Positions 29,974 through 62,983 of a stretch of DNA of 64,000 nucleotides are shown here, one piece after another. Below the pieces are notes generated by a model that searched no databases, was not told where the DNA came from, and worked only from the letters and a program-made list of their open reading frames with translations. The stretch lies in assembly GCA_000004985.1 (NCBI GenBank), contig GG738913.1. One strand, given 5' to 3'. The translations under genes were made by a program, and so were the position numbers. Numbering within the stretch: the first letter of the stretch is position 1; every line of letters starts with the position of its first letter. Source of the DNA: Naegleria gruberi. Its lineage: Eukaryota.

Positions 29974-31332
29974 ATGGAAGCGAATGTATTTGCGGCTGGT
30001 ATGACCGATAATTATGAATATCCAGCAGTAAAGAATCCGGGTGGTAAGTAAACGAGCATCACTACAAAATTCTCAAGAAGTTTTGGCTTTTTTATGTGTG
30101 ATTGTGATCGGAATGAATTTTGATCTATTTTTGTATGATGGTGTATTATTTAAATCATGATCATGATAATTTAATTGATTTTTAATGGTGATGAAAAAAG
30201 CCTTTGTTCCTCTTGAGCCTTCATTGTTTGGATATGAAAGAATTAAACATGCTGCATGTGGATATAGAACTTCTTTCTTTCTGACCGAGTCAGATCAATT
30301 GTATTGTTGTGGGCAGAATTCATCAGGAGAGTTGGGGAATGGAACTAGTGTTGATTATGAACCTCTCTCGAAGAATAGAACTCTGATTCCACATTATGGA
30401 ACCATAGAGACAATATTAGGAGGAGATACATTTACATTCTTTATCATGAAGGGTATGTTGCTTTGTTGGCCAAGTGTTTAATGGAATTGATTGCATACAT
30501 GACGAATTTGTAAAGATGGTACTTTTTGGAGATGTGGATCTAATAATGATGGCCAACTTGGAGCTGGATCAAAAAGTAAATTATTGGTACCTGAACCGGT
30601 CAATCCTACACCTTGGGGAGCTCACAGAGTGATGAAGATTGCATTTGGATATTATCACTCTGCAGTTCTTGTTAATAATACAGTGTACATATCAGGAAAA
30701 CTTTCAGGAAGTGATACCACCCATGCATATACTAAAATTGCAGATGCAGATCAGAAAATGATTGGAGAAATTGTGGATGTTTCTTGTGGAGTTTTTAACA
30801 CAATGGTTGTAAATAGTATGTTGTTGTGAATTATTGAATTTGAGATTAATTTTCAACAACAGGAAGAGGACATTTGTATAGTATTGGTCAATCAGTTGAA
30901 AATGCTTCAACTTCAGCATGGACCAGAATGAATATTGATGCACCTGTTTCCAAGATTTTTTGTGGATCACTTTCCGGCATTGCAATAACATCACAAGATG
31001 AGGTCTATTGTTGGGGAGATAACGGCTCAGGTGAGACTGGAATTCCAAGCTCAAGAGTTTCTAATTGGACAATGAATCACGATTTGTGCTATAAGGAAAT
31101 TACCAATGTTGGTATTCACACCTATCAAACCATTATCCTTACTCGTTCAGGACAAGTACTCATTTGTGGAAATAATTCCAACAATCAATTGGGAGCAGTC
31201 ATGGAAACTAGTCAAGGTGTAAAAAGAAGTACTCAATTAGAGGAATTATGTAGGAAATTCTCAAACAAGACAGCATTTGTTACAGGAGGATTTCAACACA
31301 TGATTGTCTATTTTGCTGATGGTGGTAAGTAA
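29974..31332 (+). CDS. RCC1-like repeat protein, 4 exons: join(29974..30043,30201..30452,30516..30815,30863..31332)
   Basis: Three frame-shifted ORFs (30185.., 30584.., 30874..) carry RCC1-like motifs (CGQNSSGELGNG, CGSNNDGQLGAG, CWGDNGSGETG, CGNNSNNQLGA). They are joined by GTATGT...AG introns of 63 and 47 nt with consistent phases. The first exon (MEANVFAAGMTDNYEYPAVKNPG) and its 157-nt intron are less certain. The terminal GGK-TAA could alternatively be a donor (ggtaagtaa). Confidence 0.55.
30453..30515 (+). other. spliceosomal intron (63 nt, GTATGT...AAAG)
   Basis: FFIMK | DGTFWRCGSNNDGQLG, with phase-1 continuity. Confidence 0.65.
30816..30862 (+). other. spliceosomal intron (47 nt, GTATGT...ACAG)
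   Basis: NTMVVN | RRGHLYSIGQ, with phase-1 continuity. Confidence 0.6.
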
Positions 31333-43358: not shown

Positions 43359-46300
43359 ATGTCAGCACTCAAACAAGTTAAAATTGCTGCCTTGTTGCTC
43401 AATCTCTTAATTATTAGTTGGTGTTTGAATGTTTTTGGAGCGATTAATAGGTTTTCTGCAACTCCAAAGATATTCAATTTTGGTGGAGGAAATACAAGTA
43501 GGTTTCTATTGAGCTTTCGAATTGGAAACTAATATCAAAAAGTTGGTGATGGTTCGGATGCTAGTTTAGCTGTTTTGCAATCACCATTATCTCTATTTAC
43601 TGACTCTTATGAAAGTGGAGGTGATTTATTTATTGTAGAATCGAATAGAATAAGAAGAATCTTTTCCTCCAATAATACAATTGTAACCATAGCAGGAAAT
43701 GGATATTCTGGCTATACAGGAGAAGGATATCTTGCTCTTGAATCTAGATTATCCACTCCTAGTTCTGTTTTTGTTAAATCCAATGAAATTTACTTTACCA
43801 CATTGGACAGAATTAGAAAAATTGATTCTAAAGGTTATGTCACAACAATTACAGGAAATGGAATTCAACAATTAGGTCAGAATGGTGTATTTGCCAATAT
43901 TTCTTCGGTAAATATACCTTCCTCCTTGATAGTTTCAGATGAAAATGAAATATTCTTTGCTGACACTTTCAATTATCAAATTAGGAAAATATCTGATGGA
44001 ATTATTTCAACAATTTGTGGAATTGGAGAAAGTGGATATGGTGGAGATGATCCAATATTAGCCGTAGATTCTCCGATTGGATTAGTCACAGGAATGGCTT
44101 TAGATTTTGAAAATCGACTCCTCTATTATGTTGATTATGATAATAGACGAATCAAAATGATTAATCTCAATGATGAAATGCTCTATACACATGTTGGCGC
44201 AGGCTCCTTATTTGATGATAATGCTAATCGAAATGAAACTCAATTATCTTCTCCACACTCAATTGCCTTCTCATCCTATTCGGGTGCTCTCTATTATTCT
44301 GAAATTGCTAGTAATTACTCAGTGATTAGACGAGTTTATCAAGATGTGGTCAATACGGTGGTTGGTTCTGGAAATTCTGGTTTCTCTGCTGATGGATCCT
44401 TTGCTACTATTGCACAAATTAACAAACCAAAAAGTATTTGCATTACCAGTGATGAGGATATCATTTTCATTGACAGTGGAAATAACAGAATACGAAAGGT
44501 GCTTCACTCCAATGAAACTTTGATAACCATTTCTGGACAGAATACTTCCTTCAAAGCACCTTTCACAACTCCCATTCAATACTCTCAATTATACAATCCA
44601 ACGAGGATAAAACTATATGAGAACAAGACAATCATCACCGAATCAACAATTGTAAGACAAGTGGTGAATGGAGTAATTTCAATTGTAGCAGGTGTATATG
44701 GTAGCTTTGGAGTTGCACAAGAAGGTGCTTTGGCAACAAGCTCCTATTTGAGCTTTCCTAGAAGTGCTGCATTAGATCTTAATGGCAATATTCTCATAGC
44801 TGATTTCAATAATGGTAAAATCAAATTAATTACCAATAGCAAATCGTACACCTTTGCTGGAAGTAAGGCGACCTTTGGTCAAGAAAATGTGATTGGAACG
44901 GCCACAAGATTGTATAATGGATGTGGTTTCTCCTACTATAATGGAGAATTCTATTGGAATGATAGTGGAAATTGCAGAGTTCTCAAATTGGGAACTGATG
45001 GAATAGTTAGAAGAATTGCTGGCATAACAGGTATATGTGGCTTTTCAGGGGATGGTGGTTTGGCCACCAATGCTCTAATGGGAGTTTCATGGGGATTGAG
45101 TGTCTCACCAAGTGGTGATATTTATGTTGCTGAATCTATTAATTCTAGAATAAGAAAGATTTCGAATGGTATCATTACAACTGTTGCTGGAACATCAGTG
45201 GCTGGATACAATGGAGATGATATTGCTGCCACAAGTGCAAGCCTTAATGGCCCTCCTGCAGTCTTTGCTACCAGCACTGCATACTATTTGGCTGATGCTG
45301 GAAACCGTAGAGTTAGAAAAGTTTCATACAGCACTGGAATAATTACAACCATTGCTGGAAATGGAGCTAGTGGATCTTCTGAGGAGAATATTAATGCCAC
45401 AAGTGCAATTATTGGTACAAGCTCCCCAAGAGCTCTTTGGGTTAGCAATGACGATTCTGTCTATTATGCAGATGTTTCAAATGGAAAGACAAGAGTTGTA
45501 ACTAATGGAATAGTTTCGACCATCGCTGGAACTGGAGTGTTGGGCTATTCAGGAGATGGTGGTTTGGCAACCAATGCCAATTTTAGATGGATATATGGCT
45601 TGTGGATGGTTGGTTCTGACTTATATATTGCTGACAGTACTAATAATGTTATAAGAAAGCTGTCGAATAATATTGTAACCACAGTGGCAGGAACTGGAAA
45701 TGCTAACTTCAATGGAGATGGTATACCAGCTCTCTCTGCAAATATTAACACTGCCAATCAAGTAATTATTCATCCACAAACATCTGAAATGTTCATTCTC
45801 TCATCAGATAGAATCAGAAAGGTCAACACCAATGGCACCATTTCCACAGTGGTTGGAGGTATTGGTGATGGGGCTCAGGCCATATATGCACTCATTAATC
45901 CAACAGATATTCATGTCACCAATAATGGTACAATCTATCTCACAGATTCATTAAATCATTGCATTAGAATGATTACAAGTGATGGAGTTATTTCACTTGT
46001 TGCTGGTTCTTACTATGGTGGTTTTGGAGGTGATAATGGACCTGCTGCTAACGCTGTTTTGAATAGTCCAGAATCTCTATTTGTAAATTCGAAGGGTGAA
46101 ATTTACGTTTCAGATACAGTCAACCATCGAGTAAGAAAAATTGATTTGAATGGAACCATTACCACAGTTGCTGGGAGTGGTTTGGCTGGTTTCTATGGAG
46201 ATGGTGGATTGGCTACAAATGCTAAATTGAGTTATCCTATGGGAATTTACGTATCCAAAAATGGTGACATTTATATTGCTGATTATGGCAATCATAGAAT

Positions 46301-49300
46301 TCGAAAGGTTTTCAGTAATGGAACAATCACCACTATAGCTGGAACTGGAAGCATAAATTATAATGGAGATATTCAGGAGGCAACTTTAACAACTCTTAAT
46401 TCACCAAGAGGAGTTTACATGTCACCAAATGAAGATGAAATTTACATTGCCGATTCGGGAAATAACTTGATTAGAAAAATCAAACTTGATTGTCCATCAG
46501 ATTATGAATTGGACAAGAGATTGGGAGAGTGTGTGCAAATTGTCAAGTGTTTTGGTATTTTGGCCACCGACAACTCAGTTTGTTCTGGAAATGGACAATG
46601 TGTCGATGGAAGCTGTATCTGTAACAACCAAACCTTTACAGGGCCTAACTGCTCTAGTATCACTTGTTTTGGAAAAGTACCTTCAGATTTGATGGTTTGT
46701 AGTGGAAATGGTCAATGCGTTACAGCAAATAATTGCTCATGCCTTTCTGGTTATGTTGGGAATGAATGTCAAGCGAATCTGAATCCATTCTCCATCGAAT
46801 TGTTGAGAAATGAAACTATTTCCAATAATTATAGTTATCAGATTAAGGATAATGGATTGAATATGACAAATTATTATTGGACATGCCAGAATTGGGATCC
46901 AAATATTTCAATTTCAACAAGTGGAAGGAATGCATTCGTAACTTTCAGTTCAGCTTACTCTAAAGTGTATCTGTTGTCGGTTTATGCTTCAATTCCCAAT
47001 TTCAGCCCATATCCTCCAAGAATTTCGAATACTATCCTGTTCACTATTATTTCCCCTAATGTTACCATTCAGCCAAGTTTCAATCAAACAACCAATGAAA
47101 CTCTACAAAATAACCAGACAGTGAACTCAAACCAAACAACAAACAATTCATCCATTCCCGTTCAAAATAATCAAACAATAGCAAACGAAACATCCACTAA
47201 TTCAAACAGTACTGATACCAAAAGCGTTAATATTTCAGGAAAGTTGGGAGTTTTTGGTCTTCCCTCGGTTTTGGTTTCAAAACAGATTGACGTTTCAGCA
47301 GTAATTTCTAATATTTCACTGAACCAAACTTCTATCAATTCGTTCCTATCATGCACTCCTAATTGTACATTAAAAATTTCATATGAATGGAAAATCAATA
47401 TTGATAACAACCAAGCAGCCAATCAAACTGGTTTTACCACTTCCATTTCTTTAGGTAATAATTTGATGAGCTTTAATCCACCAATTCAAATCCAATTCAG
47501 TACAAGTAATGTAAAAGGAGAGAAATTCACACTTTCCCTTGCCCTTTTTTCAAACAATGGAAATATTTCATCGAGTACAAGTATGGATATCGTTACCCCA
47601 GTCCAACCACCAACAGCATCTAATTCCACAACTTCAAAATCATCAAATTATTTAATGAGTGTCAATCCAGAGAAGGGAGTTGCCCTGAGTGACTCATTTT
47701 CAGTTAGTGTCGCATCATGGAATGCACCATCACAAATTCTTCCTCTCAAATATGCTATTGGATTTGTTTCTAATGGAAAGGACGTGAGATTTACAGATTA
47801 TGCACAAACTACTTTGTTCAATATTTACCTTCCTTACTTGATCCAACAATCCAGGGGTCAAGTTTCAGAAATTCAACTCTATCTCTATGTTATGGATGCA
47901 ATTGGAAATGTTGTAACATCTCCAACTGGACTCTCCATTTCAGTTTCTCCTTTTAATGGAACTTCTAGTGAATTGGTCCAAAAAATCAACGAGCTTGGCA
48001 CTACTTCACTAGTAGTTGCATCCTATGATAAATCCTATACAGTTCTCTCAAGTAGTGGAGGAAATTCAAGTGAGTTAGTGTATGAAATTGTGAAAAATAT
48101 TCAAATTGATCCAAAGAATCCAGAAACTGCCCTCACATCCATCACCAGTCTTACATCCACTACGAGTGTAATTAATGAAAATATTGTGAGTGAAGTAGCA
48201 AGTAAGATCACCTCGTTTGTTGATAATGTGAAAGATATCTATGCATACGAAAAGAGAGTATATGGATTTGTCAAAAGCAAGGTTTCACCTGACAATATTC
48301 TCTCTACTGTGACTATTACTTCCAACCTATTAGCAAGTGGAGTTGATAGCGAGAAAACTGTTGGCGTAGTTGATAATGTTGCCTCAATGGTATTGTTAGC
48401 AGAAATTCCAAAACTTCTCACAAGCTCTGAAAAGCTCCAATACATCTCATTCACAACTGGTATGGTGAATATTACAGTTTCTAGTTTCAAGATGACCTCT
48501 CCAATAGAGGGTAATCAACTAATCGAGGAGGAGAACAATAAGGTATCTGCAAATTTGACAAGTATCATGATGGAATATGGAACCTTAAATAAGGAGTGTG
48601 GTCTATCGATGGTCTCCTACACAAAGAACATGAAGTTTGACAATTACACATCAAATACTATTCATGCTTCGAGTATTAACGATTTCAAATTCATTCAAGA
48701 GCAAAATATTGTACGACTCGATAATCTCGAGCATCCAATTGTGCTATCATTCAAATTATCTCATATTCCACAACAAAACAGTTCAGTAAATTCCACATTC
48801 TCCTGCAGATATTGGGATGAAACTAATAAGATATGGAGCGATAGAGGTTGTCAACTTTCCAATATTGACCTGAATGCTGGCACAGTAGAATGTTCATGCA
48901 GCCATACTACAATGTTCACAACATTTGTAGAACAAAAGACTACCAGTATTATGATAGCAATGAAAGAAGAAGTTGCAACATTATATTTTGTACAAATAGC
49001 TCTTGGTGCTGTTTATACTATTGTTGCTTTGGTAATTATTACTGGTTTGATAATATTGAGAAAGGAGCAACCAGTAACAAGTAGACTTATCACCCCATAT
49101 GTAGGAATGGTGGCTCTCATTGCAGAGAGTGTGTTGATTTACATTGTCCAAAGAAGTGTCCTTGTGAGTCAGCTCCTTTCCACAACAGATCCCAAAGTAT
49201 GGGAAGTTGGTGATAATGCTGCCAATATTATTGCAAACAGTGTTGCCATTGTTGTGAATACTTTGAATTTGACTGCTACATTGTGCTATGTGATGCAAGT

Positions 49301-50732
49301 TTCCAGATTCCAATTCCTTAAACATTTGTACAAGCTCTTGTCCGATAATAGATCAGATATGGCAAAGAATGCCAAGATTTTGAAAGTCCTCAAATTGATA
49401 ACCTCTCAGAAAATATTCTTTTCAATTATTGCAATCTTTGCCGTGTTGAATGTTTGTTTCTGGACTCTTTGGGTTGTTCTAGTAAGGACACAAGTCATTG
49501 ATGCCTCTACCTATACCTATATTGTATCATCTTGTTACATTACTTGTATTCTCTTCTTTGGAGCAGTTATTTGCATTGTAGCCATTGCTGATTGGATTAT
49601 TTCCACCAAGAAACACGTAACAGCAGGTCAGGAAAGAAAGAGAAAGACTGTCAGTTTCACCACTCTCAGCTCTGAACCACGAGAATCCATCAAGAAGCGA
49701 CTCTTCTCTCCAAAACAACTCTACGAATGGTTAATTCAAGTTGATGAACCACTCTATTTCCGATTCGAAATGCTCCTCTACATGATTTGCTTTGTCTTCC
49801 AAGTGTTAAATCTTGCCATTGGCTCCTCCAGTCTTTCCTACCGATATGCTGACTTGGATTCATACAAGAAAGCACTTGCTCTCGATGGAATCTCCTTCAT
49901 CTTTGAAGTACTCTATGTGGTGAGTTACTTGTTTGTGTTTGGTGGTTTTGCTCTCTTGATTGCCATATTGTACAAGTACAAGAAGAAGAAACAACATGAT
50001 GAAGCCTCTACTTTTCTCATCAACAAATTGAATGGTGGCAACAATAACAAGGTCGACGAAGGAATCATGAGTGAGGAGATGAGGGATGTGCTAGATAAGA
50101 ACGAAGGCTATCTATTATTCGAAGCCTTCTGTGAGAAGGAATTCTCTCTAGAAAACCTCTACTTGTACTCTGACTTGAAAGCCAATGAAACCATCACCAA
50201 AGGAAGACAATTCACCAACCTAACAACCTTCATGAGATTCATCTTTAATAACTACATCCGAACAGGAAGCACCACAGAAGTGAATATACCAGCCAAGTGT
50301 AGGAATAACTTTTTACTTGTCTATAAGAATGTAGCATCAAGTAGTGAACATATGCAACAACAATTGGGAATTGCTGAGAAGGTGAGTAGGAGTGAGGTGG
50401 AAAGACTCGATAGGAATCTACAGGTGGTTATCAAGAATGATCAAGTAGCTACTTTATCAACTAAAACAACAACTACAACTTCTACTAATGAACAACAACA
50501 ACAAGAAGGAAATATCAAATCTTCATCGCCAGTAGCTGCTGTAGAAAATGTTGATCATGTGGTGGAGGGTGTTGTTTCTGCCTTTGAATTCCTCTACAAG
50601 CAAACATTGGTTAATTTGGGTGATACCTTCTCTCGATTTGTCTTTACGAGTGAATACAAGGAATATTTGGCTTCATTGGAGGCTCAGAAGGTTGTTACGG
50701 TGGAAATTATTGCTGCCTACGGAGATGTTTAA
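43359..50732 (+). CDS. giant secreted multidomain receptor: signal peptide, about 20 NHL repeats, 2 EGF-like modules, S/T/N-rich stalk, GPS/GAIN-like motif, 7TM, cytoplasmic RGS domain; join(43359..43497,43543..50732)
   Basis: Exon 1 MSALKQVKIAALLLNLLIISWCLNVFGA... is joined through a 45-nt GTAGGT..AAAAG intron, phase 1. NHL-type repeats (TIAGTGxxGYSGDGGLATNA...P.G....G..YIAD..N..IRK). EGF-like CSGNGQCVDGSCICNNQTFTGPNC and CSGNGQCVTANNCSCLSGYVGNEC. GPS-like CRYWDETNKIWSDRGCQLSNIDLNAGTVECSCSHTTMFTTF. Seven hydrophobic helices at 48960..49990. RGS signature FEAFCEKEFSLENLYLYSDLKANE. Confidence 0.85.
43498..43542 (+). other. spliceosomal intron (45 nt, GTAGGT...AAAAG) after the signal-peptide exon
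   Basis: ...GGGNTS(I) | GDGSDASLAVLQSP. Phase-1 junction; removes the in-frame TAA. Confidence 0.7.
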
Positions 50733-51003
50733 TCATGTTGTTTGTCATTATGTGATGAAAAGCCTTGAAAAATTTGAGATGAAGATTTTCAGACCATTTT
50801 TTGTGAAAATAAAATTTTTATTATTGTTTTAAATTTGATGTAACGGATTAATTAATCTGTATTACAAAATCTTGACAATTTCAAAGCAAGTAGGCCAATT
50901 ATGTTTCCATTTAGGAAATTCAAGGAAAATTGTACATTCTAATTTTCCGAAATTAATTCGACGCCATACTAAAGACAAGCTCTAAAATGGTGATGGAAAT
51001 TTC

Positions 51004-51351
51004 ATGCATTCTATTCAAATCATTTGTTTGGCCATATTGAAAAAAATGCATTTAAATCTCTTGAGTGTTTCAGTTCCTTTGATTTGTGGTCTTTTATCGT
51101 TTGTTTTATTTCCTGTAACATCTGACAGTTTGAAACCCTTCTTGATAATTGGAATATTGCAGTGTTTTGCATTTGTAGCTTTGTTTGTGGTTGATGTAGT
51201 AACTTGTTTTTGGAAGGATTTTGTGTTGGTTGGATTTATTTTTGCAGTGGGACTTGCTTTGTTTTATAGAAATGATATTTGTTTGATGAGTGACAGGAAT
51301 GCATTGCTTTCGGGATGGTGTCATATTTGTCTTTCTCAAGGATTTTACTAG
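51004..51351 (+). CDS. possible small multi-TM membrane protein (low confidence)
   Basis: 115-aa ATG ORF consisting almost entirely of hydrophobic helices. No homology recognised. Could be spurious. Confidence 0.25.
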   Translation: MHSIQIICLAILKKMHLNLLSVSVPLICGLLSFVLFPVTSDSLKPFLIIGILQCFAFVALFVVDVVTCFWKDFVLVGFIFAVGLALFYRNDICLMSDRNALLSGWCHICLSQGFY

Positions 51352-51417
51352 AAATATTTCAATATTCCTTGATGGATTAATTAATGCTAGAAATTATTTA
51401 TTGAAATATTGAAGAAA

Positions 51418-52825
51418 TTATTGAGCTGGTTTATTTGATCTTAGAGGAGACTTGGAAGCTGTAGTTGTCTTTCTAACACCCAAAACTGAGGAAGGTGTTG
51501 AACCAGTTGATCTCTTTGTTGGTGAGCTTGCTTTGGTTGTTGTAGTTGTTGTCGAAGACTTTTTAGTTGGAGAAGAGGATGGTGACCTAGTGACTGATGT
51601 TGGTTTCTTTACTCCCAAACTTGAGGATGGAGTTGTTGTAGTTCTTGTTTTGGTTGGTGAGACAGATTTGGTGACTGTTTTAGAGACTGTTGGTTGACTT
51701 GATACAGTTGTGGTAGGCTTGGTTGTTGCAGTAGTTGACGAACAAGAGCTACCTTCCTTTGCAATTAAATTCTTAATTGCTGTTTCCAATTCCTTTTGGC
51801 TAAATCCTTCAAGACGCTTTGATTCCTTTCCATGGTGGAAGAGCTTGAACGTTGGTAAGCAGCTAATACGTTCCTTAGAAGTGATAGAGTAGAGTTTTGA
51901 TGTATCTACTTTGATAAATTTAACTTTTTGATTACTGAAAGCTAATTTGCTGTATGGAGTTGCACAAGCAACACAAGCTCCACAATTATCTCCATAATAA
52001 TCTGCAACAACTAGAGAATTATCCTTGAGTACGTGATTATATTCCTCCTCACTCTTGACATAGGTAACAAATTCATCACTCGATCCAGCCAACATGTCCT
52101 TCTTCAAATATTCCTCAGATGGAGAATCAAAGTGTAATAAGCATTCCTCCATTTCATAAGAAGATCCACCAATTACAGTTTCCTTCATTTTTCCATTGTA
52201 GAAAAAGACAAATGTTGGCATTGCATGAACATCACATTTAGACATGATCTTTCTATGTTCATCCACATTGACTTTCATAAAGGTGACATCTGTATGTTTG
52301 GCAGCTAAACTCTCAACATATGGAGTGATAGCCTTACAAGGACTATTAAAGGTACATTAATAAAAAGGAAAGTCAAACAGAAACATACCCACACCAATCA
52401 GCATAGAAATCAACTACAACTTTGGTTTTAGATTTGATTGTATCATCAAAATCTTTTTCCTTAACAATATGAAGGATTCCATTTTCGTAAAATGGTGGTT
52501 CAAGTTGCTTTGCTAACATGTCAGCATTTCTTGATACAATGGATTCACAAAGACCATCCAACTTTTGAACAACTTCTCCTTGGGAAATAAAGAGAAAGGT
52601 CGGAAGACACTTGGCTCCATATTCATCAGCAATGCCACTAAAATTATTAATATCCACCTTAGCAAAATTAACCTTTGGTTTTTCAGAGGCCAATCCCTCA
52701 TAATTAGCATCATAGTCTCTGCAAACACCACAATAAGGTGATGAAAAGTAAACTACAACTGATGGATTTTTAGCGATCAAACTACGAAACTCTTCTTCGG
52801 ATTGAATCTTTGTAAAATTGGTCAT
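51418..52825 (-). CDS. three-thioredoxin-domain (PDI-like) protein with Ser/Thr/Pro-rich C-terminal tail; complement(join(51418..52342,52389..52825))
   Basis: Domain 1 FSSPYCGVCRDY. Domain 2 active site WCG | PCK is reconstituted only by removing a 46-nt GTATGT...TAG intron (52343..52388); without splicing, ORF 1 ends DWCGYVSV*. Domain 3 DNCGACVACATPYSKL. The 100-aa T/S/P-rich tail is mucin-like. ATG at 52825 in an A-rich context; no signal peptide from that start. Confidence 0.8.
52343..52388 (-). other. spliceosomal intron (46 nt, GTATGT...AATAG) splitting the WCGPCK thioredoxin active site
   Basis: tgg tgt gg | gtatgtttctg...ctttaatag | t cct tgt aag. Confidence 0.85.
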
Positions 52826-53140
52826 TTCTATTGATTTATTACTCTCTATAGATTTTAATATACAACAATGCAGTATTAGAAAAAAGATCAAAAAATCGTT
52901 CCTTCCAATGTCTTGCTATTTTTTTTGATGATTAAGGGGAGATAAGGCTCAGAGAGAATGAACTTTAAAATTTACAGAAAAAAAAAGTTCATCTCATCAT
53001 TCGCCATCATCATTAATTTATTCATTTATTTTAATTATAAATGATGAAGTAATAATATTAGTTTTTATGATCGGGATGTATTGGAATTTATTTGCTTAAT
53101 GAGATTATTTACAATAAGAGTAGTAACTTTTCTCTTGAAT

Positions 53141-53728
53141 TTAAACTTGTTGATTTTGTTGAAGAGTTGGATAATGAACACCAATTGGATTGGTTGTGTT
53201 ATAAACAACAGGAACTTGAGTAATGTATTGAGAAGGCATGACTTCTTCCTCTCTCAACATTTGATGAGAGTCTTGCTTTTGAATTGTAATGGAATATCCC
53301 TTCTTCTTCAAAATGATAAAAGTAATTCCAGCTCCACAGGCAAATGTCAAGGAAATCATTGAAATGAGACAACCCAAGAATGTGAAAATCATACCGAATG
53401 GGAATCCACGACGACGACCACGTTGATTTGATTCTCCATCACGATTGTTGTTATCATTATTTTGGTCTTGAGCTGATTCAGGATGCTTATTTCCTTGTTG
53501 TTGACCTTGTTGCTTTCCATCTTGTTGTTTCTTTGGTGGTTTGTTTTGATGGTTTGGAGGCATATTCTTATTAGAATCAGAACCAGATTGTTCATCAGGT
53601 CTTGGTGGCTTACCACCAGAAGGCATTGGTGGTCTTGGTTTGTTATTAGAATCTTGATTTTCTTGAGCGAAAGCAAAAGTCAAAATGAGCAAGAATGCAA
53701 TAGCAAGGAGAAGAAATTGTCTAGACAT
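53141..53728 (-). CDS. hypothetical type I membrane protein with P/Q/N-rich low-complexity ectodomain
   Basis: Signal peptide MSRQFLLLAIAFLLILTFAFA. PRPPMPSGGKPPRP ... QQDGKQQGQQQGNK. TM FGMIFTFLGCLISMISLTFACGAGITFIIL. Confidence 0.45.
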   Translation of the reverse strand: MSRQFLLLAIAFLLILTFAFAQENQDSNNKPRPPMPSGGKPPRPDEQSGSDSNKNMPPNHQNKPPKKQQDGKQQGQQQGNKHPESAQDQNNDNNNRDGESNQRGRRRGFPFGMIFTFLGCLISMISLTFACGAGITFIILKKKGYSITIQKQDSHQMLREEEVMPSQYITQVPVVYNTTNPIGVHYPTLQQNQQV

Positions 53729-54052
53729 GTTGTTGATTCTTTTTGTTTTGTTGATTGAAAGATATTACATGTTCAGATTTTGAATTTATAGCTCTGAAAT
53801 TGGAACTGCTCGTCCGAACTGTCACCAAATGTCACTTCGTTCCAAATAGATGAAGTACTTTGGATTGCGGATTTAGAGTTCCTGTGAATGTTCCATTCAG
53901 TGGAAGATGTTCAGTTGATGAAATAGTTGTTCCTCCTCCAGATTTCAATAAATTTTATATTTTATTTATTATTTTGATGGATGGCAATAACGAAATAGTT
54001 GAATGAAGTAAGGGAATTGTAAATGGGTTAAAGTTTTATTTTATTATGTACA

Positions 54053-57000
54053 TTATTTATCATTACTTGGACTGACAGGAGTGGCAGCAGTGACACCAAT
54101 AGAACCAAAGCCACCAACATCAATCTTCAAGAAGGATTTACTCTTCTTATCGTCATTTTCCAATCTCTTTTCAATCCATCCAATAATTTCAGTATTATCA
54201 CTTTGAATGGCAAGTTGTAAAGCTTGTTCAAGTGAGACAGCTCCAATTTCACACAAATACTTGACAACATTCAATTGAACACGTTTGATGGCCATTTCCA
54301 AAGGTGAAACTCCATTCAATGTCTTGATAGCACTAATGTCAACTTTCAATGGTGAATCAGCTGCTGGAGCGAATTTACCATGGTAATTTCCATTTTCAAC
54401 TAATAATTTAACAACGTTTGGATGTCCATAACCAGCTGCAAAGTGGAGTGGAGTCAATTGTTTGTCTTCTCTTGTGTTGATGACTACTGAACAGTCACAA
54501 CCCTTTTCAATGAGATATTGAGCACAGTCAACTCTGCCACTGATAGCACACAAGATAATTGGTCTCATTTGCAAGTCGTGTCTAGATTGATCAACTGAAA
54601 CATTGTACTTTTCAACAAGCAACTTGACAGCATCCAAATTACCATTCTTAGTAGCAGCATGAATTGGTGGATAGGAATTTTCAGTGTACGATTCTTCATA
54701 ACTTCCACAAGGATCCAATTTAACTTCATCAATCAAATATTCAATAACACTGACATTTCCTCCATAAGCAGCAGCTGAAAGAATTGTTTCGGCTCCCTCT
54801 GTAACAGCACCACTGTTAGCACCCTTTTCAATGAGCTTCTTGACAAGCTCAACTTGAGAATTTTGAGCAGCAAAATAAAGTAATGATTGACCCAAACTAT
54901 TGGAGAAGTTCAAAATGTTTTCCTCAGATGGGTTTTCAAGAGCTGTTTGAACAATCTTGGCACCGACGTGTCCTGGCAAATCCTTACATTGAACAGCAAG
55001 GAAAATTGGTAAATCCTTTCCACCAGAACGCTTTTGACAGTCAACTCCATGGTCAACCAAGAAAGAAGCAGCAGGTGGGCAGTGCAACATGCAATTGTGG
55101 AGAGCAGTATATTCTACAGAGTCAGCAGCACGTTTTTCACTTTCATTGACAAGATTGGTCAATTCTTCACTTGTCAACAAGTTAGCATTCAAAATTAATG
55201 GAATGGCATTCATGTTCTTTGCTCTGATAGCCAAATGCAAGAAGGTTGATGAAGAGTGCATTCCAGAAACAGTGCTACCAATATCGAAACGAGAGAGGGC
55301 AAACTTTGGAACTTTGGAGAAGAGAGTCTTCAAGATGACTTGACATTTTTCCAAACAGAATTCATCATGGAATTGAATTCCAGAAATTACAAATTCAATC
55401 AAGAGATTTCTCAAATTTTCCTTCACTTCACCATCAGAATTATCATCAGATGGTGGAGCAATGAATTCAGAAGCCAATTCTTGTAAGTGGGTTTCAATGG
55501 CTTCAGTAGTGACCAATCCAATAGATCCTGTTTGAGTATTATCACCAATGATACTCTTTCCAATTGAAAGCCACTTGGTCACGAGTGGATTATTATTAAT
55601 GGTGAAGAGAACAGATTGATTTGCTGTTGAGCTAGTTGGAGCCAATGGATTGGAAGGTGCATTCTTGTAACCTGGAGTGGCTAATCTTTCATTGAAAGAG
55701 TTCAACAAGGTAGCATTCATCAACTTTCTAGTATTTGAACCAATCAATGAAACCAACATTGCAAATGGACTCATCTTGCCATACTTTTTCAATTCTTCCA
55801 ATTTAATATTACCATACTTGGAAGCTTCACTTTCTGTAATCTTGTCAACATTTCGTTTAGTTCTAAAGAACAAATTACCACCTCCTCTCTTGAGCAAAAT
55901 CTCCAACATTCTTCCATTTTGATTGTAAATGGCATAGTGCATTGGTGTCCAACCAGCATCATTCTCAACATCAACTTGAGCATCTTCATAAACCAATTTT
56001 GTAACCAAATCAAATTCATTTTCACGAGCACACAAATTCAATGCAGTAAATCCACCATTCTTATCAATTTGATTAATGTTAATCTTACTTTCCTTCTTCT
56101 TTTCCAAGATCATACTCAATAATTCTTCACGTGGTTTCAATTGACCTCCAGAACGTGGTGAAATGCCACGAGGAGACATTCCTCCAGATCTAGGTGAAAT
56201 GGATGAACTAAATTCAGCTGTACCAGAAGTATTTAAACTCAATCCAGGAATATCACTTGCAAGTGTTGAGCTAGCAGTTGCTGTCGAAGAATTTTTACTG
56301 TCAGCAAGTGTCAAATCTCTTGAAATGGCAATGAAATGCAAAGCAGTTTGATCCAAACGATTCTTCTTATTAAAATCAACCCCATTATCCAACAAGAACT
56401 TGGTCAATTTCAAATCCTGATTCTTCACAGCAATATGCAATAAAGAATCCTTGTCAACATAACCCATTTGTGTCAATTGTCTAATTTCTTCACTTGTCAA
56501 ATATTGTTCATCTTCTTCATCATCTGATAAATCTTCTTCTCTCAATCCAGGAGCAATTGTCATTCCTCTTGATGAAGGAGTTTTTGGAGTATCTTCTTTC
56601 GAATAATGTAAATAAGCTAATTTCGAATATTCTCCATTACCAATCAAACTACGAACGTCAGTAAAGGAATGTTGTTCGATCAATTTTACAACTTTGAGAT
56701 GAAGTTGAGTTTGAGAAGATTTCAATTCGTCAATTACGTTTTCAATGGCGTTCATCCATTCTTTACGTTGTTCTTGATTTTCGGCTGAGAACCAATAGGT
56801 GAAAGTGGTTGGGGAGTCTTCAGATTGGTTATTTGATCCTTCCTCATTGGAAGGAGCTGTTGTTTTTAAACCAAAGGTGTTTTCTATTGTTATTCGAAAG
56901 TAAAATTAATATTCGAAAAAAGGTAAAATGATCGAATAATGTGATGATTACTTACGGAAACCTTTGTGATTTTCAATATCTACAATAGTAGAAAAACGAG

Positions 57001-57297
57001 TTAATGGAATCTTTTCTTCATGTTTCTTATCAACTTTCTAAAATCAAATTATTCGAAACTAGACTAAATACAAAAACTTACTTCACTGTCTTTAAAACAC
57101 AACATCTTCCTACCTGTCAAGACTACAAATCTTTTATATGATGACTTTTGAAAGAATTTCTTTTTCGAATTTTCCAAAACGAGTTTTCCACTCTTTTTCA
57201 CACGACCAGCAAATCCAGAACTTCCAACAGCTGAAGCAGCAGCAATTCCAGAAGTGCTGATGGATGTGGATGGAGCAAGTAAGTCAATGGTTGACAT
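54053..57297 (-). CDS. PH-domain + ankyrin-repeat protein; complement(join(54053..56883,56956..57037,57082..57297))
   Basis: Exon 1 encodes PH-like strands (KLVLENSKKKFFQKSSYKRFVVLTGRKMLCFKDSE). A 44-nt intron (gtaagttttt..ttttag) leads to the 82-nt exon 2 (KVDKKHEEKIPLTRFSTIVDIENHKGF). A 72-nt intron (gtaagtaat..caatag) leads to exon 3, which completes the PH C-terminal helix (FTYWFSAENQEQRKEWMNAIENVI). At least 10 ANK repeats follow (TPLHFAAGYGHPNVVKLLVENG, PPIHAATKNGNLDAVKLLVEKYN, ...). Phases are consistent. Confidence 0.75.
56884..56955 (-). other. spliceosomal intron (72 nt, GTAAGT...CAATAG) within the PH domain
   Basis: NHKGF(c) | (aa)NTFGLKTT ... WFSAENQEQRKEWMNAIENV. Joins the 57064..57297 ORF frame to the 54053..56755 ORF frame. 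Confidence 0.75.
57038..57081 (-). other. spliceosomal intron (44 nt, GTAAGT...TTTTAG) within the PH domain
   Basis: FKDSE | KVDKKHEE. Confidence 0.7.
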
Positions 57298-58893
57298 GTT
57301 TTTTTTTTATGTTTGATTTTTGTGTGTTGATGGATGACTGATGGCAATATTGAAAAGTTTTTACATGACAGGAGATGGAAATAGTACATTGTTGGAGGAT
57401 GAACATCTTTTGCTTGAAGTGAAAGTTTGAGAATGATAAGGATTTGTGTTATCCTAAAGTGATTATGTATTCGATTCGAATGGTGTGAAATTTCATATGG
57501 AGGAAGAACCCATTCAATTTAAACAAATAATAATTATTAATTTTGTTTTAAGTTTAAACTACTATTTTTGAATGCATCTTCAATTCTCTTCAATTCTTTG
57601 CTATGCTTCAATGGTTTGCTTCTTGCATTTCTTTCAAATTTTAAACAAACATAATAAAAGTAAATTATTTCTGAATTTTGTTGAATTCTGATTGAATATG
57701 AGGAATGGACTTTTTTTCGATTGTAAATTACAAAATAAAGTGAAAATATTTTGAGTTGCTTAATAAGCGACCTCAATTCCGAGTTGTTAACAATTTTCCA
57801 TGCTCAAAAAATTATTCAAATGTCTGGAAATAACAAGAAAGGAACTCCACAAAGGAAACAACACACTGTATCATCTCCATCTCATCCTAAACAAAGAGTG
57901 GACCCACTACTCCCTCCCAAAAACTGTTGCGCTCATTAATCTTTGGTAAGGGATTAATTTCTGAGTGAGGTTTTTATCAATATTTCGGAAACATTGTAAA
58001 ATTTTCTTTATTTCACTAACATTTCTTTCTCATATTCGCATTTATCGTTGGTCTGACGTTTTTTTTCTTATCCTTAGGATAATGATATTATCTCAAGACC
58101 TGCTCAATAAAGATTTATATTCTTCAAAGCAGGTTCCAGACTGTTTCACCATTAAGGTGAACAGTCTCTGAGCTTTAATACCCATTTGTTTTTATTAATT
58201 TGCAATGTAACATAAGCTTTATGGTGCTTAATGGTTCCTGGCAATTCAGAATAGTCCAACGACAAACCCGTTGCACTTGAATGTTTTGCTGCATACCCTT
58301 CTATTAATAAGAAAAGTTATGATATTAATACATTGAAACCAGCCATTCAATTCTTTGCAGACGTGGAAGGTTGGCAACTCAATGTAGCTGGTAGTTTTTC
58401 AAGAGTTAAGAAAGGTCTTACTAAAGCCTACTATATTGTGGATCGTTCTAAACTCAAACGTAATGGTTTCTCTTCTTATGATATTAAATCATATGTTGAT
58501 TCGATTTCATCACATAATGAATATAGTATTGATAATAATCTAATAAATATTCGTAAAGTGATTTGACTGTATTCCTTACTCAAACACATTTTCAAATAAT
58601 ATTATCCAATCCGAGATTTATCCAAAAAGCCAAGCCCATAAAAATTCAACCAGATTGCCCTTTTTAATTAAGCCATAATATATCCAAAAAAAGCGGTTTG
58701 GATTCTGGATACTAATTCTAGGAATCAGGATTTTATTTTCAATTATAATAGTCAAGTGAGAACAAGAGGAGCACTATTCTCGATAATACATAATACAAAT
58801 GCTTCAACTAAGAGTGAATCAAATGAATGGACATTTAAAAATTGCTTTGAGCAATTTAAATTGAACTGTAAATATATTGAAGAAACGTTAGAT

Positions 58894-61800
58894 CTATTGG
58901 AGAACCTTTTTACAAGTTTGATATATATTATCCAAACTTTCTGCCATGTGTGATGAATCTGTTGTTCTGGAAATATTGCAAATTTCTCTCAGGGTTTGTT
59001 CATATCTCAATAATTGTGCCCTCATGGACTGATTTTCAAACCTCAAAGCATCCATTGTTGAACTTTTCAATTGTAATAATCCTTTCAATAGATCGACATG
59101 TGTAAAATGTTTGGTCGGCTCCTTTAGAATTTCTAATAGATTATTCATAATTTTGAGATAATGAATACATTCTCCTCTGTGTGTTGAACGAGATTGGATC
59201 ATTGTAATTAAACACCTTCCAAGAATATCATTGAATAGCACCTTTTCCAAAAAAGAATTAGGATGGGAGCAAATAACCTCAAGATTTGGATCTATAAACT
59301 TGTCAATTTCCTTTCTAATAGATTGATGAAGCATGGCCTCTCCTTGTGGAGTACTTAATAACTTGAAAAAGTAATTTTTTCCAACTCCAAATAAACAAGA
59401 TGAACCAGAATCTTCATTCGTTGATATAATACTCAATGTTCTGTTGCAGATCATTTTCATTAAGACACATCCCATTGAGTAAGTGTCACAATTCTTTGAG
59501 ATTTTGAAATTTTCCGTTTGTTTGCCTTCTTCCTCATCATAAACCTCTGGAGCAAGATATTACCATGTCCCTATATTCACTGATATTGAGTGGTTGGATT
59601 GAATAACTTTGGAATTGTCAAAATCAATGAGTTTGGCATGTCCTTCATTGTTGATTATTACATTTGCCAACTTTAAATCTGTACAAAATTTCAGTATTGA
59701 TTTTGAAAACAATAAACATACCTCTGTGTGTGAAATTTAGATTATGCAAACTGATGACACCCTCAAGAACTTCAGTAAAGTACTGTAAAACTTCAATCAA
59801 ATCTTGAGTGGATAAGCAATGCTCCAAATTTAAATAATTTTGGTGCATTTCTGACATTACATGATCCAAAGGAGATCCCATTTCCATAATTAAATAGCTA
59901 TACTTGCTATTATGCAACTCATAAAAATTACATTCAAATGTTTTGACAATACCCTTCAAATTTGGTGTTTTCTGCATTTAAAGTTGTGAGTTAATGGAGT
60001 ATGAGGTAGGAGACTTTTTACGGGCAATTTTTCAACAATTTCTTCAATCCTACCGTCTCTAACATATTGATAGAGTTGAAATAGAAATTGAACATCCTCT
60101 CTAAGTTGTTCGGTCTCTAGGACGTAATTTAAAATCTGTTTGTTCTCATAAAGTTTGTTAATTTTTACACAGTCCAAAATTAGTTCAGTATCCAATTTTT
60201 TAGTCGAGTAGAGGATGGCCAATCCAAAAGTTTTGGTAGCTGTCAAGATAATATTTGAATCGCTTTGTAGGGAATTTGATGCAAATTTCAAAAGTTCACC
60301 TTTTTTCTCAATGAGTGGAGTGATAAGATTCTTTCCATACTTGAATTTTTCAGAGGCGAATTGAATGGAAAGTGGATTTTGAGCAATCGCCATCTGAACT
60401 ATTTGTAAATCCTCTTTGAAAATACCTGGAACTATTTCAAGAAGCAATCCGTTCCTTTCTACATATTCCAATATCTTCATTTTGTCGTTTTTCAATTCTC
60501 TAGAAGCATATTCGAAAGAATAATAGTTTTGAGAAACTGCAAGATCAACTATTGTAGGATTATTCCTCAATCTTTCAGATGCATACTTTAAAGATAGTCC
60601 TCTCGATTTTACAGCAATAGAAACGAGACTTTCATCATCCTGAAAGGAGTTTGGAAGAAATTCCAAAGCATATCCATTAAATTCGAGCAACTCCTTCATT
60701 GTTTCAATGCTTACAGTATTCCAATCTGTAAATTTTTGGAGAAGCATTACATTTCTTTCTGTCAATTCTTTTACAGACATATTTTCCTTCATTTCCAAGT
60801 TTAAATAAGAAAATTCCTGTTTCATCAAGAAATTAATAAACACCTGCAGTGCTGGGCAATCAGTTTTGATTCGAATAAAGTGTTCTAAATAATCCATGCC
60901 ATGGATTATGTTATTTTTCGTAACCTTGTTACCAATACCGCCTCTACTAGTTTCACTTTGAGGAAATACCAAAGCCAATAGAAAATAGTATTGAACGGCC
61001 ATTTCTGATGTTGTTATGGCTACTGCCTTCATATCATCAATCAACTTTTCAATAATTTCAAAAGTATAACTTTGTGAAAGGTTGTTGATATATCTGAAAA
61101 CGATATCGACTCCCAAAATTGTTAGATTTGAAATCATACTTCTTATACTGGAACGATAGTCCATTGCTAGGAACCAGTAATTAATGTTCTTCCAATAAAT
61201 TTCCTTTAACAATTCCAAATTACAACAATTTCTTGATTTCTGTTGAAACATTTTCTTGAAACAAAACTCAATTAATTCAAAATCTTTTTCATCTTGAGTA
61301 GTTTCTACAAATTCTCTAAAAATACTGAAAGATTTGTTAAGGTTACGAATTGACTGATTGTAATATGTTTGTAAGAGCATTGCTTTAAATCTTAAAGTTG
61401 CTTCCTTGGATAGTATTTGACTAATTACACCATTTTCGTCCAACAACATGCTGCATTCCGTGAGAGAGCAATAGCAATGTAGATCTTTTGATTCTTTAAC
61501 TAGCATCAATGCATCAAGAATATCTAGTTGTGTTACATGGGAAATAAAAATGAAATTGTCAATAGATATTCTTTCGTTAATAGAAATGACCTCTTGCGGT
61601 AGGTTTCGAATGCTCTTTTGTCTAAGATTCAACAATTTAAGCAGACTGGGACCAAAATATTTACCTTCATCATCGTACACAATTCCTGAATCACGAAATT
61701 GTTTCTTAGCTGATCCATCACTATTAAATAAAATTGAGGAATATTGAGAGTGGACCAAACCTTTAGTCAGCACAATATAATTCTTTTCATCTAACATCAT

Positions 61801-62983
61801 GAGTTCTCTAATGTCATATCCAAAATCCAATGGATCTGTATTTGTTTCATAATCCATTAATAAATTGAATGCTTGATGAATTTTATCATCCATGATAAAT
61901 TGAAAAGCTTTTTGAATTATTGAATGATCTTTTTTGGTTGGAATCTTAATATTTGGATGTGTGAATTTCATAACAATTTGAGTAGTAGACTTGTAATTAG
62001 TGATTCCTTCGATAGTTACAAATAGTCCATGAATGGTTTCTTGAATATTAGTGAATTTTGTTTGTTTCAATTTTGAACCTTCTTGGTGTTGGCTCATTAA
62101 TTCTTCTACAGTCAATGTCTGAAATAAATCAACACTTTTGTCTTTGTTAATATTGTAAAATTGTAATGTTTTTCCATCATGTGAAATACAGGAAGCTAAT
62201 ATTGGTTGACAAATTGAAATTCTCTTAAAAAAATAACCATTAAAAGTGATATCATTCTTTTCAATATTTGAAATCAATTGAGCAACAACTTGAATCTCTG
62301 TCTTTCCATTTCTAATATCGGCTTCATCTCCATTCAACACAATCTCTTTCAAAATTGTTTCGGTTTTGTAATCATACACTACATACACATTCCTAAATCT
62401 CAATACCATACTATTTGCGAGAAAAATCAATGAATCACATCTTTTAGATTCAAATTTCTCCAAATTAAATCTTTTTTCAAAAGATAGAAATAAAAAAGTC
62501 ACTGGTAATTTTCTGTAAACTGTAAATCGAAATTCCTTTCCCCAAACAATACAAAAAGAATCGTCTAAACTTTGTAAAGGAATTCTTCTTGTACAAGAAA
62601 TCAATTCTCCTGTTTCTTTCTTTTGGAAAATGGAATTTCTTTCCTTTAGTGTAAAATCCAAATCAGATCCAGTCTTCTGGAATGCGTTACCCTCAAATTT
62701 AATTGTCAGCTCTTTTCCTAAAGCTGAAAAACTGTAAGAAAAGAGTTGTACAATAGAATTCACACCTTCACCTTGTAAACTTTTATCAATTACTGTTGAG
62801 TAATGAACAAGCAACATTCCTTTTTCTTCATGACATTCAATTTTTTGAATGGAACAAGTTTCGGGTGAATTTTCTTGGAATAAATGTTGGTGGTGAAAAC
62901 TTACCACAAAATAATTCCCAAATTTGTTCCACAAATAACTTGCTGATATTTTGAATCAAAGGTTGAACAAGTAATCGAGCCAT
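58894..62983 (-). CDS. DUF4116-repeat + C-terminal Ser/Thr protein-kinase-domain protein carrying an in-frame TAA; complement(join(58894..59678,59722..59971,60022..62873,62905..62983))
   Basis: A large N-terminal region with DUF4116-like repeats (ALEFLPNSFQDDESLVSIAV, LSLKYASERLRNNPTIVDLAVSQN, YSFEYASRELKNDKMKILEYV...). Kinase subdomains are split by two introns: ...EKLP | KTPNLKGIVKTFE (50 nt, GTAAAA..CAG) and NFTHR | DLKLANVIINNEGHAKLIDFD (43 nt, GTATGT..ACAG). Then SISVNIGTW-TAA-YLAPEVY...CDTYSMGCVLM. The 5' exon (MARLLVQPLIQNISKLFVEQIWELFC) and its 31-nt intron are tentative. Confidence 0.55.
59560..59562 (-). other. in-frame TAA stop inside the conserved kinase activation-segment motif (GTW-*-YLAPE)
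   Basis: Minus-strand codons ...ata ggg aca tgg TAA tat ctt gct cca gag... The reading frame remains open and kinase-like for 220 more codons downstream. Confidence 0.8.
59679..59721 (-). other. spliceosomal intron (43 nt, GTATGT...GTACAG) splitting the HRD motif
   Basis: cac aga g | gtatgtttattg...ttttgtacag | at tta aag restores HRDLK. Confidence 0.75.
59972..60021 (-). other. spliceosomal intron (50 nt, GTAAAA...TGCAG)
   Basis: Joins the 59956..62934 ORF frame to the 59645..59977 ORF frame with phase 0. It removes the TGA that ends the upstream ORF. Confidence 0.6.

What the first reader, a model, noticed from the sequence alone, without database searches (positions are those of the whole stretch)
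58894..62983. DUF4116-repeat kinase gene with an in-frame TAA in the GT-x-YLAPE motif
After two well-supported introns restore kinase subdomains (…HRDLKLAN…IDFD…), the frame reads SISVNIGTW-TAA-YLAPEVYDEEEG…CDTYSMGCVL. A stop codon occupies exactly one codon position inside the most conserved activation-segment motif. The same frame stays open and clearly kinase-like for another 220 codons. This is either a very recent nonsense mutation (a young pseudogene), a sequencing error, or a site of programmed stop-codon readthrough. The N-terminal 950 aa carry DUF4116-type repeats, a domain of unknown function, fused to a kinase. The tentative 5' exon with a 31-nt intron (62874..62904) would be the shortest intron in the window.
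Basis: seen in the sequence. Interest (0 to 1): 0.6.

Follow-up and report, generated by a model that had tools for sequence, protein, structure and literature searches.

The report
Broken allele of a Naegleria kinase gene
The stop codon inside the kinase motif is real, but it sits in a dead copy of a Naegleria gruberi gene that has also lost 901 bases, including the front half of the kinase, so it is an ordinary young pseudogene or null allele and not stop-codon readthrough.

Summary
On the minus strand a TAA (59562..59560) occupies one codon of GTW-x-YLAPE, and the Pfam kinase match runs across it in the same frame.

The window is the Naegleria gruberi NEG-M reference, from a 236-kb scaffold. 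Three related sequences carry Glu at this codon: a second NEG-M copy on a small scaffold (XP_002668465.1), a close strain (contig L001, GAA) and a 51%-identical relative (L003, GAA). The TAA is therefore a single G-to-T nonsense change.

The same copy lacks 901 bp that L001 has, with the junction at 59972/59971. The lost piece holds the end of the DUF4116 region, a genuine 41-nt intron, a linker of about 200 aa and the kinase N-lobe (G-loop GKGAQG and the VVLK lysine). The deletion shifts the frame, so the annotated protein (XP_002670690.1, 953 aa) ends four codons past the junction.

It has a weak donor, and 21 such pairs restore the frame. Intron 2 (59721..59679) is real.

In the related strain the intact DUF4116-kinase gene lies at the same genomic position. 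The window copy is most likely a disabled allele. Readthrough has no support. Interest is low.

The parts
59956..62817 (-). Annotated CDS of the truncated DUF4116 protein (XP_002670690.1 / NAEGRDRAFT_74392, 953 aa, single exon). It ends ...NFKCR|KHQI-TGA, four codons past the deletion junction.
   Evidence: (100% identity and coverage to P0029 on the 236,320-bp scaffold).
60120..60690 (-). DUF4116 repeat region. Coordinates are approximate; Pfam reports 4 stretches, the best at model residues 773-821.
   Evidence: PF13475, E=1.7e-36, 4 stretches. One search gives the F/YAS..L motif positions at 790, 815, 865 and 890.
59971..59972 (-). Deletion junction. The 901 bp present in the related strain (L001 971-1871) are missing here. 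The position is ambiguous by a 2-nt 'GA' microhomology.
   Evidence: The deleted DNA is not found elsewhere in the window.
59972..60021 (-). It is a chance GT-AG pair and not a real intron. In the undeleted copies this stretch codes for VKSLLPHTPLTHNFKCR.
   Evidence: read through as coding in P0004 and L001. (verified donors are GTAAGTT or GTATGTT). (21 GT-AG pairs restore the frame).
59722..59971 (-). Kinase remnant, first part. It starts at subdomain IV (KTPNLKGIVKTFE...) and runs to ...NLNFTHR. No start codon, glycine loop or VAIK lysine lies upstream.
59679..59721 (-). Genuine 43-nt intron (GTATGTTT...TTGTACAG) splitting HR|DLKLAN. It is also present in L001 (2123..2165).
58894..59678 (-). 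Kinase remnant, second part. It holds the catalytic loop, DFD, the activation segment, the C-lobe and a C-terminal tail of about 110 aa, ending at the TAG at 58896..58894.
   Evidence: the last 100 nt and the stop are identical in L002.
59560..59562 (-). In-frame TAA. It is derived from GAA (Glu) by a G-to-T change at window position 59562.
   Evidence: L001 has G; P0001 and P0002 read GTWEYLAPE; L003 codon is GAA.
62874..62983 (-). Tentative 5' exon (62983..62905) and 31-nt intron (62904..62874). Unverified and not used by the reference model.
   Evidence: The seven verified introns are 41-63 nt.

Best explanation
The window is the Naegleria gruberi NEG-M reference. The locus holds a recently disabled version of a large gene. 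When intact, that gene encodes an orphan N-terminal region of about 770 aa, DUF4116 repeats, a linker, a complete Ser/Thr-type protein kinase domain and a C-terminal tail.

Two lesions are shown in the window copy:
1. A 901-bp deletion with 2 nt of microhomology removes the end of the DUF4116 exon, a 41-nt intron, the linker and the kinase N-lobe. It takes out 860 coding nt, so it shifts the frame and the reading frame stops four codons later.
2. A G-to-T substitution turns the Glu codon of GTWEYLAPE into TAA.

Inferred: the kinase remnant is untranslated dead sequence. It still looks like a kinase only because the lesions are very young, with about 0.4-0.9% divergence from intact copies.

Inferred: it is the null allele of a heterozygous locus. 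The intact allele was assembled separately on two small scaffolds. A very recent duplicate is the less likely alternative.
For: Identity of the window: five window ORFs, including one of 1577 aa, are exact matches to N. gruberi proteins on one 236,320-bp scaffold.

Deletion:
- L001 1-970 aligns to window 60940-59971 (99.6%) and L001 1872-2849 aligns to window 59972-58995 (99.1%), both ungapped.
- The missing 901 bp encode ...DLYWTILKKAKK...GKYTYM, the GTAAGT...ACAAAG intron, the linker, and GKGAQGIVFKC...VVLKV...FNFM.
- The spliced L001+L002 sequence is open over all 954 codons assembled, up to the shared TAG. It matches Pkinase profile positions 5-241, against 68-242 for the window.

Nonsense change: GAA in L001 and L003, and E in XP_002668465.1.

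Lineage-specific changes: K, L, S and the stop are specific to the window. That is 4 replacement changes and no assignable synonymous change in 1035 nt.

Annotation: the reference model stops just after the junction and no kinase is annotated.

Genomic position: L002 continues collinearly from window 58993 to 47351 at 97.9%, so the intact gene sits at the same locus in the related strain.

Intact version in the same assembly: it lies on scaffolds of 1,525 and 8,914 bp (XP_002668047.1 and XP_002668465.1).

Heterozygosity of N. gruberi is reported in the literature (PMC9928731, citing Fritz-Laylin 2010).
Against: - No reads or RNA-seq could be examined, so the single base at 59562 could still be a base-calling error.
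- Allele versus recent paralogue cannot be settled without read depth or the small scaffolds' DNA, which were not retrievable.
- The sister copy's model has a +1 shift near window 59173 (THRG|RMYSLSQNYE*). It may therefore not be fully intact either, or that scaffold has an error.
- The count of window-specific changes is too small for a formal dN/dS test.
Confidence: 0.85

Rival explanations
1. Sequencing or assembly artefact. The T at 59562, and possibly the deletion junction too, are errors of the Sanger draft, and NEG-M really carries only the intact gene.
For: - It is a draft assembly.
- The intact version exists in the same assembly on small scaffolds.
- No reads could be checked.
- The sister scaffold itself seems to carry a 1-nt indel, which shows that such discrepancies occur.
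Against: - The window copy differs from the sister copy at three other replacement sites in the kinase remnant and at one site in the DUF4116 part. Two distinct sequences therefore exist in NEG-M.
- The junction is clean, with 2-nt microhomology, and sits inside a 236-kb scaffold.
- An assembler would need reads spanning the junction to build it.
Confidence: 0.08
2. Recent paralogue, not an allele. A segmental duplicate of the DUF4116-kinase gene decayed at this locus, while the functional copy lies elsewhere in the genome.
For: Two versions are present in one assembly. The small scaffolds' flanks could not be read.
Against: - In the related strain the intact gene lies at exactly this position, collinear with the downstream ankyrin and thioredoxin genes.
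- The divergence of about 0.4% is in the range of allelic variation.
- An indel of about 900 bp is the kind of difference that makes assemblers split haplotypes into small scaffolds. This last point is an inference.
Confidence: 0.15
3. Programmed stop-codon readthrough or recoding. The TAA is decoded as an amino acid, so that a DUF4116-kinase fusion is made after splicing of the 50-nt 'intron'.
For: The frame stays open for 221 codons after the TAA, and the stop replaces exactly one codon.
Against: - The stop is not conserved; relatives have GAA.
- The product would lack the ATP-binding N-lobe.
- The bridging 'intron' has a non-consensus donor and is one of 21 chance solutions.
- There is no stable RNA structure 3' of the stop: z=+1.85, and 195 of 200 shuffles fold at least as well.
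- The genetic code here is standard. ORFs of up to 2385 codons are free of stops, and the only other same-frame stop lies inside an intron.
- The window holds no tRNA gene.
- From general knowledge, UAA followed by U is the least leaky stop context.
Confidence: 0.01

Closest known systems
Young unitary pseudogene or null allele: a nonsense mutation plus a frame-shifting deletion in a heterozygous diploid protist
   Same: - Two independent disabling lesions.
- Near-identity to an intact counterpart in the same genome and in a sister strain.
- Only replacement changes on the damaged lineage.
- The downstream ORF has not yet decayed.
   Different: Nothing unusual. The upstream DUF4116 part may still be expressed as a truncated 953-aa protein, which is how it is annotated.
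Eukaryotic protein kinase domain (Pfam PF00069) fused to DUF4116 repeats (PF13475)
   Same: The intact version (L001+L002) has GKGAQG, VVLK, HRDLKLAN, DFD and GTWEYLAPE, together with 4 DUF4116 stretches in one spliced ORF.
   Different: The window copy keeps only profile positions 68-242, has a stop in the activation segment, and is out of frame with the DUF4116 exon.
Programmed stop-codon readthrough, as in viral gag-pol or replicase genes and in some eukaryotic extension proteins
   Same: A single in-frame stop followed by a long open frame.
   Different: - The stop is not conserved.
- There is no stimulatory context or structure.
- The stop lies in the middle of a domain and not at a domain boundary.
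- The upstream part of the domain is deleted.

Membership tests
Eukaryotic protein kinase (active Pkinase domain) | Glycine-rich loop GxGxxG and beta-3 (VAIK) lysine in an N-lobe | tested here: not met
   The window match starts at profile position 68 of 263. GKGAQG and VVLK lie in the 901 bp that are missing from the window but present in L001, P0001 and P0003.
Eukaryotic protein kinase (active Pkinase domain) | Catalytic loop HRDLKxxN and Mg-binding DFG/DFD | tested here: met
   HRDLKLAN (after removal of intron 2) and IDFD are present.
Eukaryotic protein kinase (active Pkinase domain) | Uninterrupted activation segment ending in APE | tested here: not met
   The sequence reads GTW-TAA-YLAPE, with the TAA at 59562..59560.
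DUF4116 repeat proteins (PF13475) | Repeats scoring above the Pfam gathering threshold | tested here: met
   124 bits against a cut-off of 24.9, 4 stretches. The same holds for the L001 version.
Programmed stop-codon readthrough | The stop codon is conserved at the site in orthologues | tested here: not met
   GAA in L001 and L003, and E in XP_002668465.1.
Programmed stop-codon readthrough | A stimulatory 3' context or RNA structure | tested here: not met
   The MFE is -10.8 kcal/mol against a shuffle mean of -16.0, z=+1.85. The context is TAA-TAT.
Programmed stop-codon readthrough | Translation past the stop (ribosome profiling, peptides) | not testable with these tools
   No expression or proteomic data are available here.
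Variant genetic code (TAA as a sense codon) | Frequent in-frame TAA in many genes of the genome | tested here: not met
   There are 33 standard-code ORFs of at least 150 aa, up to 2385 aa. The only other long same-frame ORF pair is separated by a TAG that lies inside a 51-nt intron.
Pseudogene / null allele | Disabling lesions relative to an intact counterpart | tested here: met
   A frame-shifting 901-bp deletion and a GAA-to-TAA change, relative to L001 and P0001.
Pseudogene / null allele | Relaxed selection on the damaged lineage | tested here: inconclusive
   There are 4 window-specific replacement changes and no assignable synonymous change in 1035 nt. That is too few for a test.
Pseudogene / null allele | Allelic (same locus) and not paralogous | tested here: inconclusive
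   The related strain has the intact gene at the collinear position. The DNA of the NEG-M small scaffolds and the read depth could not be obtained.

The most novel reading that the evidence does not exclude
The damaged allele is not silent. The cryptic 50-nt GT-AG is spliced and the TAA is read through at a low level, or the 953-aa kinase-less DUF4116 protein is expressed. Either route would give a truncated scaffold or dominant-negative form of a DUF4116-kinase signalling protein.

A more modest version is also open. The locus may document haplotype-specific gene decay in a long-cultured clonal Naegleria strain.
Probability: 0.03. Interest if true: 0.45.

Novelty: new member of a known kind. 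Interest (0 to 1): 0.1.

Why it matters
It matters little beyond annotation.

- It explains an apparent in-frame stop in a conserved kinase motif as ordinary gene decay, so no recoding needs to be invoked in Naegleria.
- It gives a gene-model correction. The intact gene is a single DUF4116-linker-kinase gene with introns of 41 and 43 nt. In the reference it is split into two 'predicted proteins' on small scaffolds (XP_002668047.1 and XP_002668465.1).
- XP_002670690.1 is a truncated product of a deletion allele.
- It is a small example of heterozygous structural variation in NEG-M, and a caution against bridging frame breaks with convenient GT-AG pairs.

Tried and rejected
- Variant genetic code (ciliate or diplomonad type). 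Rejected because long standard-code ORFs fill the window, and the only other same-frame stop lies in an intron.
- A suppressor tRNA or known RNA element nearby. The window has no tRNA and no Rfam match.
- A readthrough-stimulating structure. None found.
- A tiny intron removing the TAA (GTAATATCTTGCTCCAG, 17 nt). Rejected on inspection of the sequence, because it would delete YLAP and is far shorter than any intron here.
- Fetching the DNA of the two small NEG-M scaffolds and of the window's own models. They are not on record.
- Scans of JGI metagenome contigs for the motif with either allele. There were 0 hits.
- The Fritz-Laylin 2010 and 2011 papers are not held. Heterozygosity is therefore cited second-hand from PMC9928731.
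- The search for a haplotig copy of the neighbouring ankyrin gene found no NEG-M entry at all, so it said nothing about allele versus paralogue. It did deliver the related-strain contig L002.
Full report
**1. The observation**

The gene lies on the minus strand. The frame reads ...DLKLANVIINNEGHAKLIDFDNSKVIQSNHSISVNIGTW, then TAA (59562..59560), then YLAPEVYDEEEGKQTENFKISKNCDTYSMGCVL... It stays open for 221 more codons to the TAG at 58896..58894.

A Pfam scan of the conceptual product gives Pkinase at E=1.7e-25. One match runs from residue 997 to 1191, across the stop at residue 1100. DUF4116 scores E=1.7e-36 with 4 stretches. The stop therefore does replace exactly one codon of the GT-x-x-Y-L-A-P-E activation-segment motif, and this is not a chance resemblance.

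**2. Where the window comes from**

The window is about 33% G+C and is filled with long standard-code ORFs of up to 2385 codons. Five window ORFs, one of them 1577 aa long, are exact matches to Naegleria gruberi RefSeq proteins on a single 236,320-bp scaffold. The window is therefore the NEG-M reference assembly.

The genetic code is standard. Only one other pair of long same-frame ORFs is separated by a single stop, the TAG at 39389-39391. That stop turned out to be the last three bases of a 51-nt intron.

**3. Relatives of the kinase part**

The protein search returned several relatives, whose sequences were read.

- P0001 = XP_002668465.1 is an N. gruberi 'predicted protein' on an 8,914-bp scaffold of the same assembly. 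It is 98% identical and reads ...SITVNIGTWEYLAPEVYDEEEG...
- Unlike the window, P0001 has a full N-lobe: ...SKIGKGAQGIVFKCFHTQLEQIVVLKVNITPEEQPERTEKLFNFMKTPNLKGIVRTFE...
- P0003 lies on an ENA metagenome contig (L001, 2,849 bp), and it has the same N-lobe.
- P0002/L003 is a 51%-identical relative that reads GGT ACT TGG GAA TAT CTT GCA CCA GAG.
- At window base 59562, L001 has G where the window has T.

The ancestral codon is therefore GAA (Glu), and the TAA is a single G-to-T nonsense substitution.

**4. The larger lesion: a 901-bp deletion**

L001 aligns to the window in two ungapped blocks:

| L001 | Window | Identity |
|---|---|---|
| 1-970 | 60940-59971 | 99.6% |
| 1872-2849 | 59972-58995 | 99.1% |

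The 901 bp of L001 in between are absent from the window, both here and anywhere else in it. The breakpoint is ambiguous by a 2-nt 'GA' microhomology.

In L001 the DUF4116 ORF continues past the breakpoint as ...NFKCRDLYWTILKKAKK...GGQMGKYTYM. The same continuation is seen in N. gruberi XP_002668047.1 (P0004), which lies on a 1,525-bp scaffold.

The apparent stop of that ORF, the TAA at L001 1163-1165, lies inside a canonical 41-nt intron (L001 1162..1202, GTAAGTTTTG...CTGTACAAAG). Removing this intron joins the DUF4116 ORF in frame to the kinase ORF...KYTYM|WIYDIDKIIDETTLKYASDLDK....

Spliced at this intron and at intron 2, and completed with L002, the related-strain sequence is open over all 954 codons assembled, up to the shared TAG. 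It gives DUF4116 with 4 stretches and Pkinase over profile positions 5-241.

The intact gene really is a DUF4116-linker-kinase fusion. The window copy has lost 860 coding nt plus the 41-nt intron. That loss is out of frame, and the DUF4116 frame reads NFKCR-KHQI-TGA (stop at 59958..59956). The reference annotation models exactly this product: XP_002670690.1, 953 aa, CDS 62817..59956. No kinase is annotated.

**5. The 'introns'**

Intron 2 (59721..59679, 43 nt, GTATGTTT...TTGTACAG) is genuine. It restores HRDLKLAN, it is present in L001, and it is spliced in the JGI model of P0001.

- Its AG is the last dinucleotide before the deletion junction.
- In the undeleted copies the whole stretch is ordinary coding sequence.
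- Its donor GTAAAAAG lacks the +5 G. Every confidently inferred intron here has GTAAGTT or GTATGTT. Those introns are 41-63 nt long: 12822-12866, 30453-30515, 30816-30862, 39341-39391, 52388-52343, 59721-59679 and L001 1162-1202.
- An exhaustive count found 21 different GT-AG pairs of 21-200 nt that restore an open frame across the junction. Finding one such pair is expected by chance.

The tentative 31-nt 5' intron (62904..62874) has a good donor (GTAAGTTTT). It would nevertheless be 10 nt shorter than any verified intron, and the reference model does not use it. No related sequence covers it, so it stays untested.

**6. How young is the damage, and on which lineage?**

Window versus L001:

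- The DUF4116 part has 2 synonymous and 2 replacement differences in 970 nt.
- The kinase remnant has 6 replacement differences (K/R, L/S, T/N, S/T, stop/E, F/Y), 1 synonymous difference, and 2 differences inside intron 2.

With P0001 as a third sequence, K, L, S and the stop are specific to the window, while N and Y are specific to L001. This gives four replacement changes and no assignable synonymous change on the damaged lineage. That fits relaxed constraint, but the number is too small for a test.

The last 100 nt of the ORF and its TAG are identical in L002. Indels begin immediately downstream of the stop, and identity falls to 89% over the first 568 nt of L002. The tail was therefore under constraint until very recently.

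**7. Allele or paralogue?**

L002 (10.7 kb, same metagenome sample) starts one base after the end of L001. It runs collinearly with window 58993..47351 at 97.9%, through the ankyrin and thioredoxin genes. In a closely related strain the intact gene thus occupies exactly this locus.

The NEG-M assembly contains the intact version only on two small scaffolds. A heterozygous 901-bp indel would produce that pattern in a draft assembly (inference). Heterozygosity of N. gruberi is reported in the literature (PMC9928731, citing Fritz-Laylin et al. 2010).

I therefore favour a heterozygous null allele over a decayed recent duplicate. Without read depth or the scaffolds' DNA, which could not be retrieved, this step remains an inference.

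There is one caveat. The model of the sister copy ends ...THRGRMYSLSQNYE*, which corresponds to a +1 shift near window 59173. Neither the window nor L001 shares this shift. It is either a real second defect or an error in that small scaffold.

**8. Readthrough or recoding**

Nothing supports it.

- The stop is not conserved.
- The product would lack the ATP-binding lobe.
- The bridging intron is spurious.
- The 106 nt around and after the stop fold less well than shuffled sequence: -10.8 against -16.0 kcal/mol, z=+1.85.
- The window has no tRNA gene and no Rfam match.
- The code is standard.

**9. Verdict**

The proposed gene model is wrong for this copy, and the more important lesion was missed. 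This is an ordinary, very recent gene-disabling event, most likely one allele, in the N. gruberi reference. Its only by-product is a corrected model for the intact DUF4116-kinase gene. Interest is low.

Noticed in passing
window 39341..39391 (+): The only other long same-frame ORF pair in the window (37352..39391 and 39416..40267) is separated by a TAG at 39389-39391. That TAG is the 3' end of a 51-nt phase-0 intron (GTAAGTTT...GTGTAG). It is an ordinary spliced gene and not a second in-frame stop.
   Followed up: partly
window 57466..58477: A 1,012-bp segment just downstream of the kinase remnant is absent from the related-strain contig L002. It occurs only once in the window, and no terminal repeats were apparent from the printed ends. 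It is an indel polymorphism of unknown nature.
   Followed up: partly
about window 59173 (minus strand); protein P0001 = XP_002668465.1: The sister copy on the 8,914-bp scaffold ends THRG|RMYSLSQNYE*. That implies one extra base relative to both the window and L001, so the copy would lose the C-terminal tail of about 110 aa. It may be a real frameshift or a scaffold error.
   Followed up: no
L001 1162..1202, and the two small NEG-M scaffolds: The intact gene is one DUF4116-linker-kinase gene joined by a 41-nt intron. The reference annotates its pieces as two unrelated 'predicted proteins' (XP_002668047.1 and XP_002668465.1).
   Followed up: yes
window 60204 (codon 60204..60202, minus strand): Three different residues occur at one codon in three near-identical copies: ACT (Thr) in the window, TCT (Ser) in L001 and Phe in XP_002668047.1.
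   Followed up: no
window 43575..50732 (+): A 2385-aa ORF combines NHL/teneurin-like repeats, EGF domains, a GPS motif and a C-terminal RGS domain. This is an adhesion-GPCR-like architecture with a built-in RGS domain.
   Followed up: no
L003 (ENA ERZ27237200, 914 bp): A 51%-identical relative of the kinase has no intron at the HR|DLK position, where N. gruberi has its 43-nt intron. This reflects either intron gain or loss, or a transcript-derived contig.
   Followed up: no
(search output): The search with the 953-aa DUF4116 protein returned only its own record at E<=1e-10. It missed P0004, which is 99.6% identical over 270 aa. 'No other homologue' for the N-terminal ~770 aa should therefore be read with caution.
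   Followed up: no
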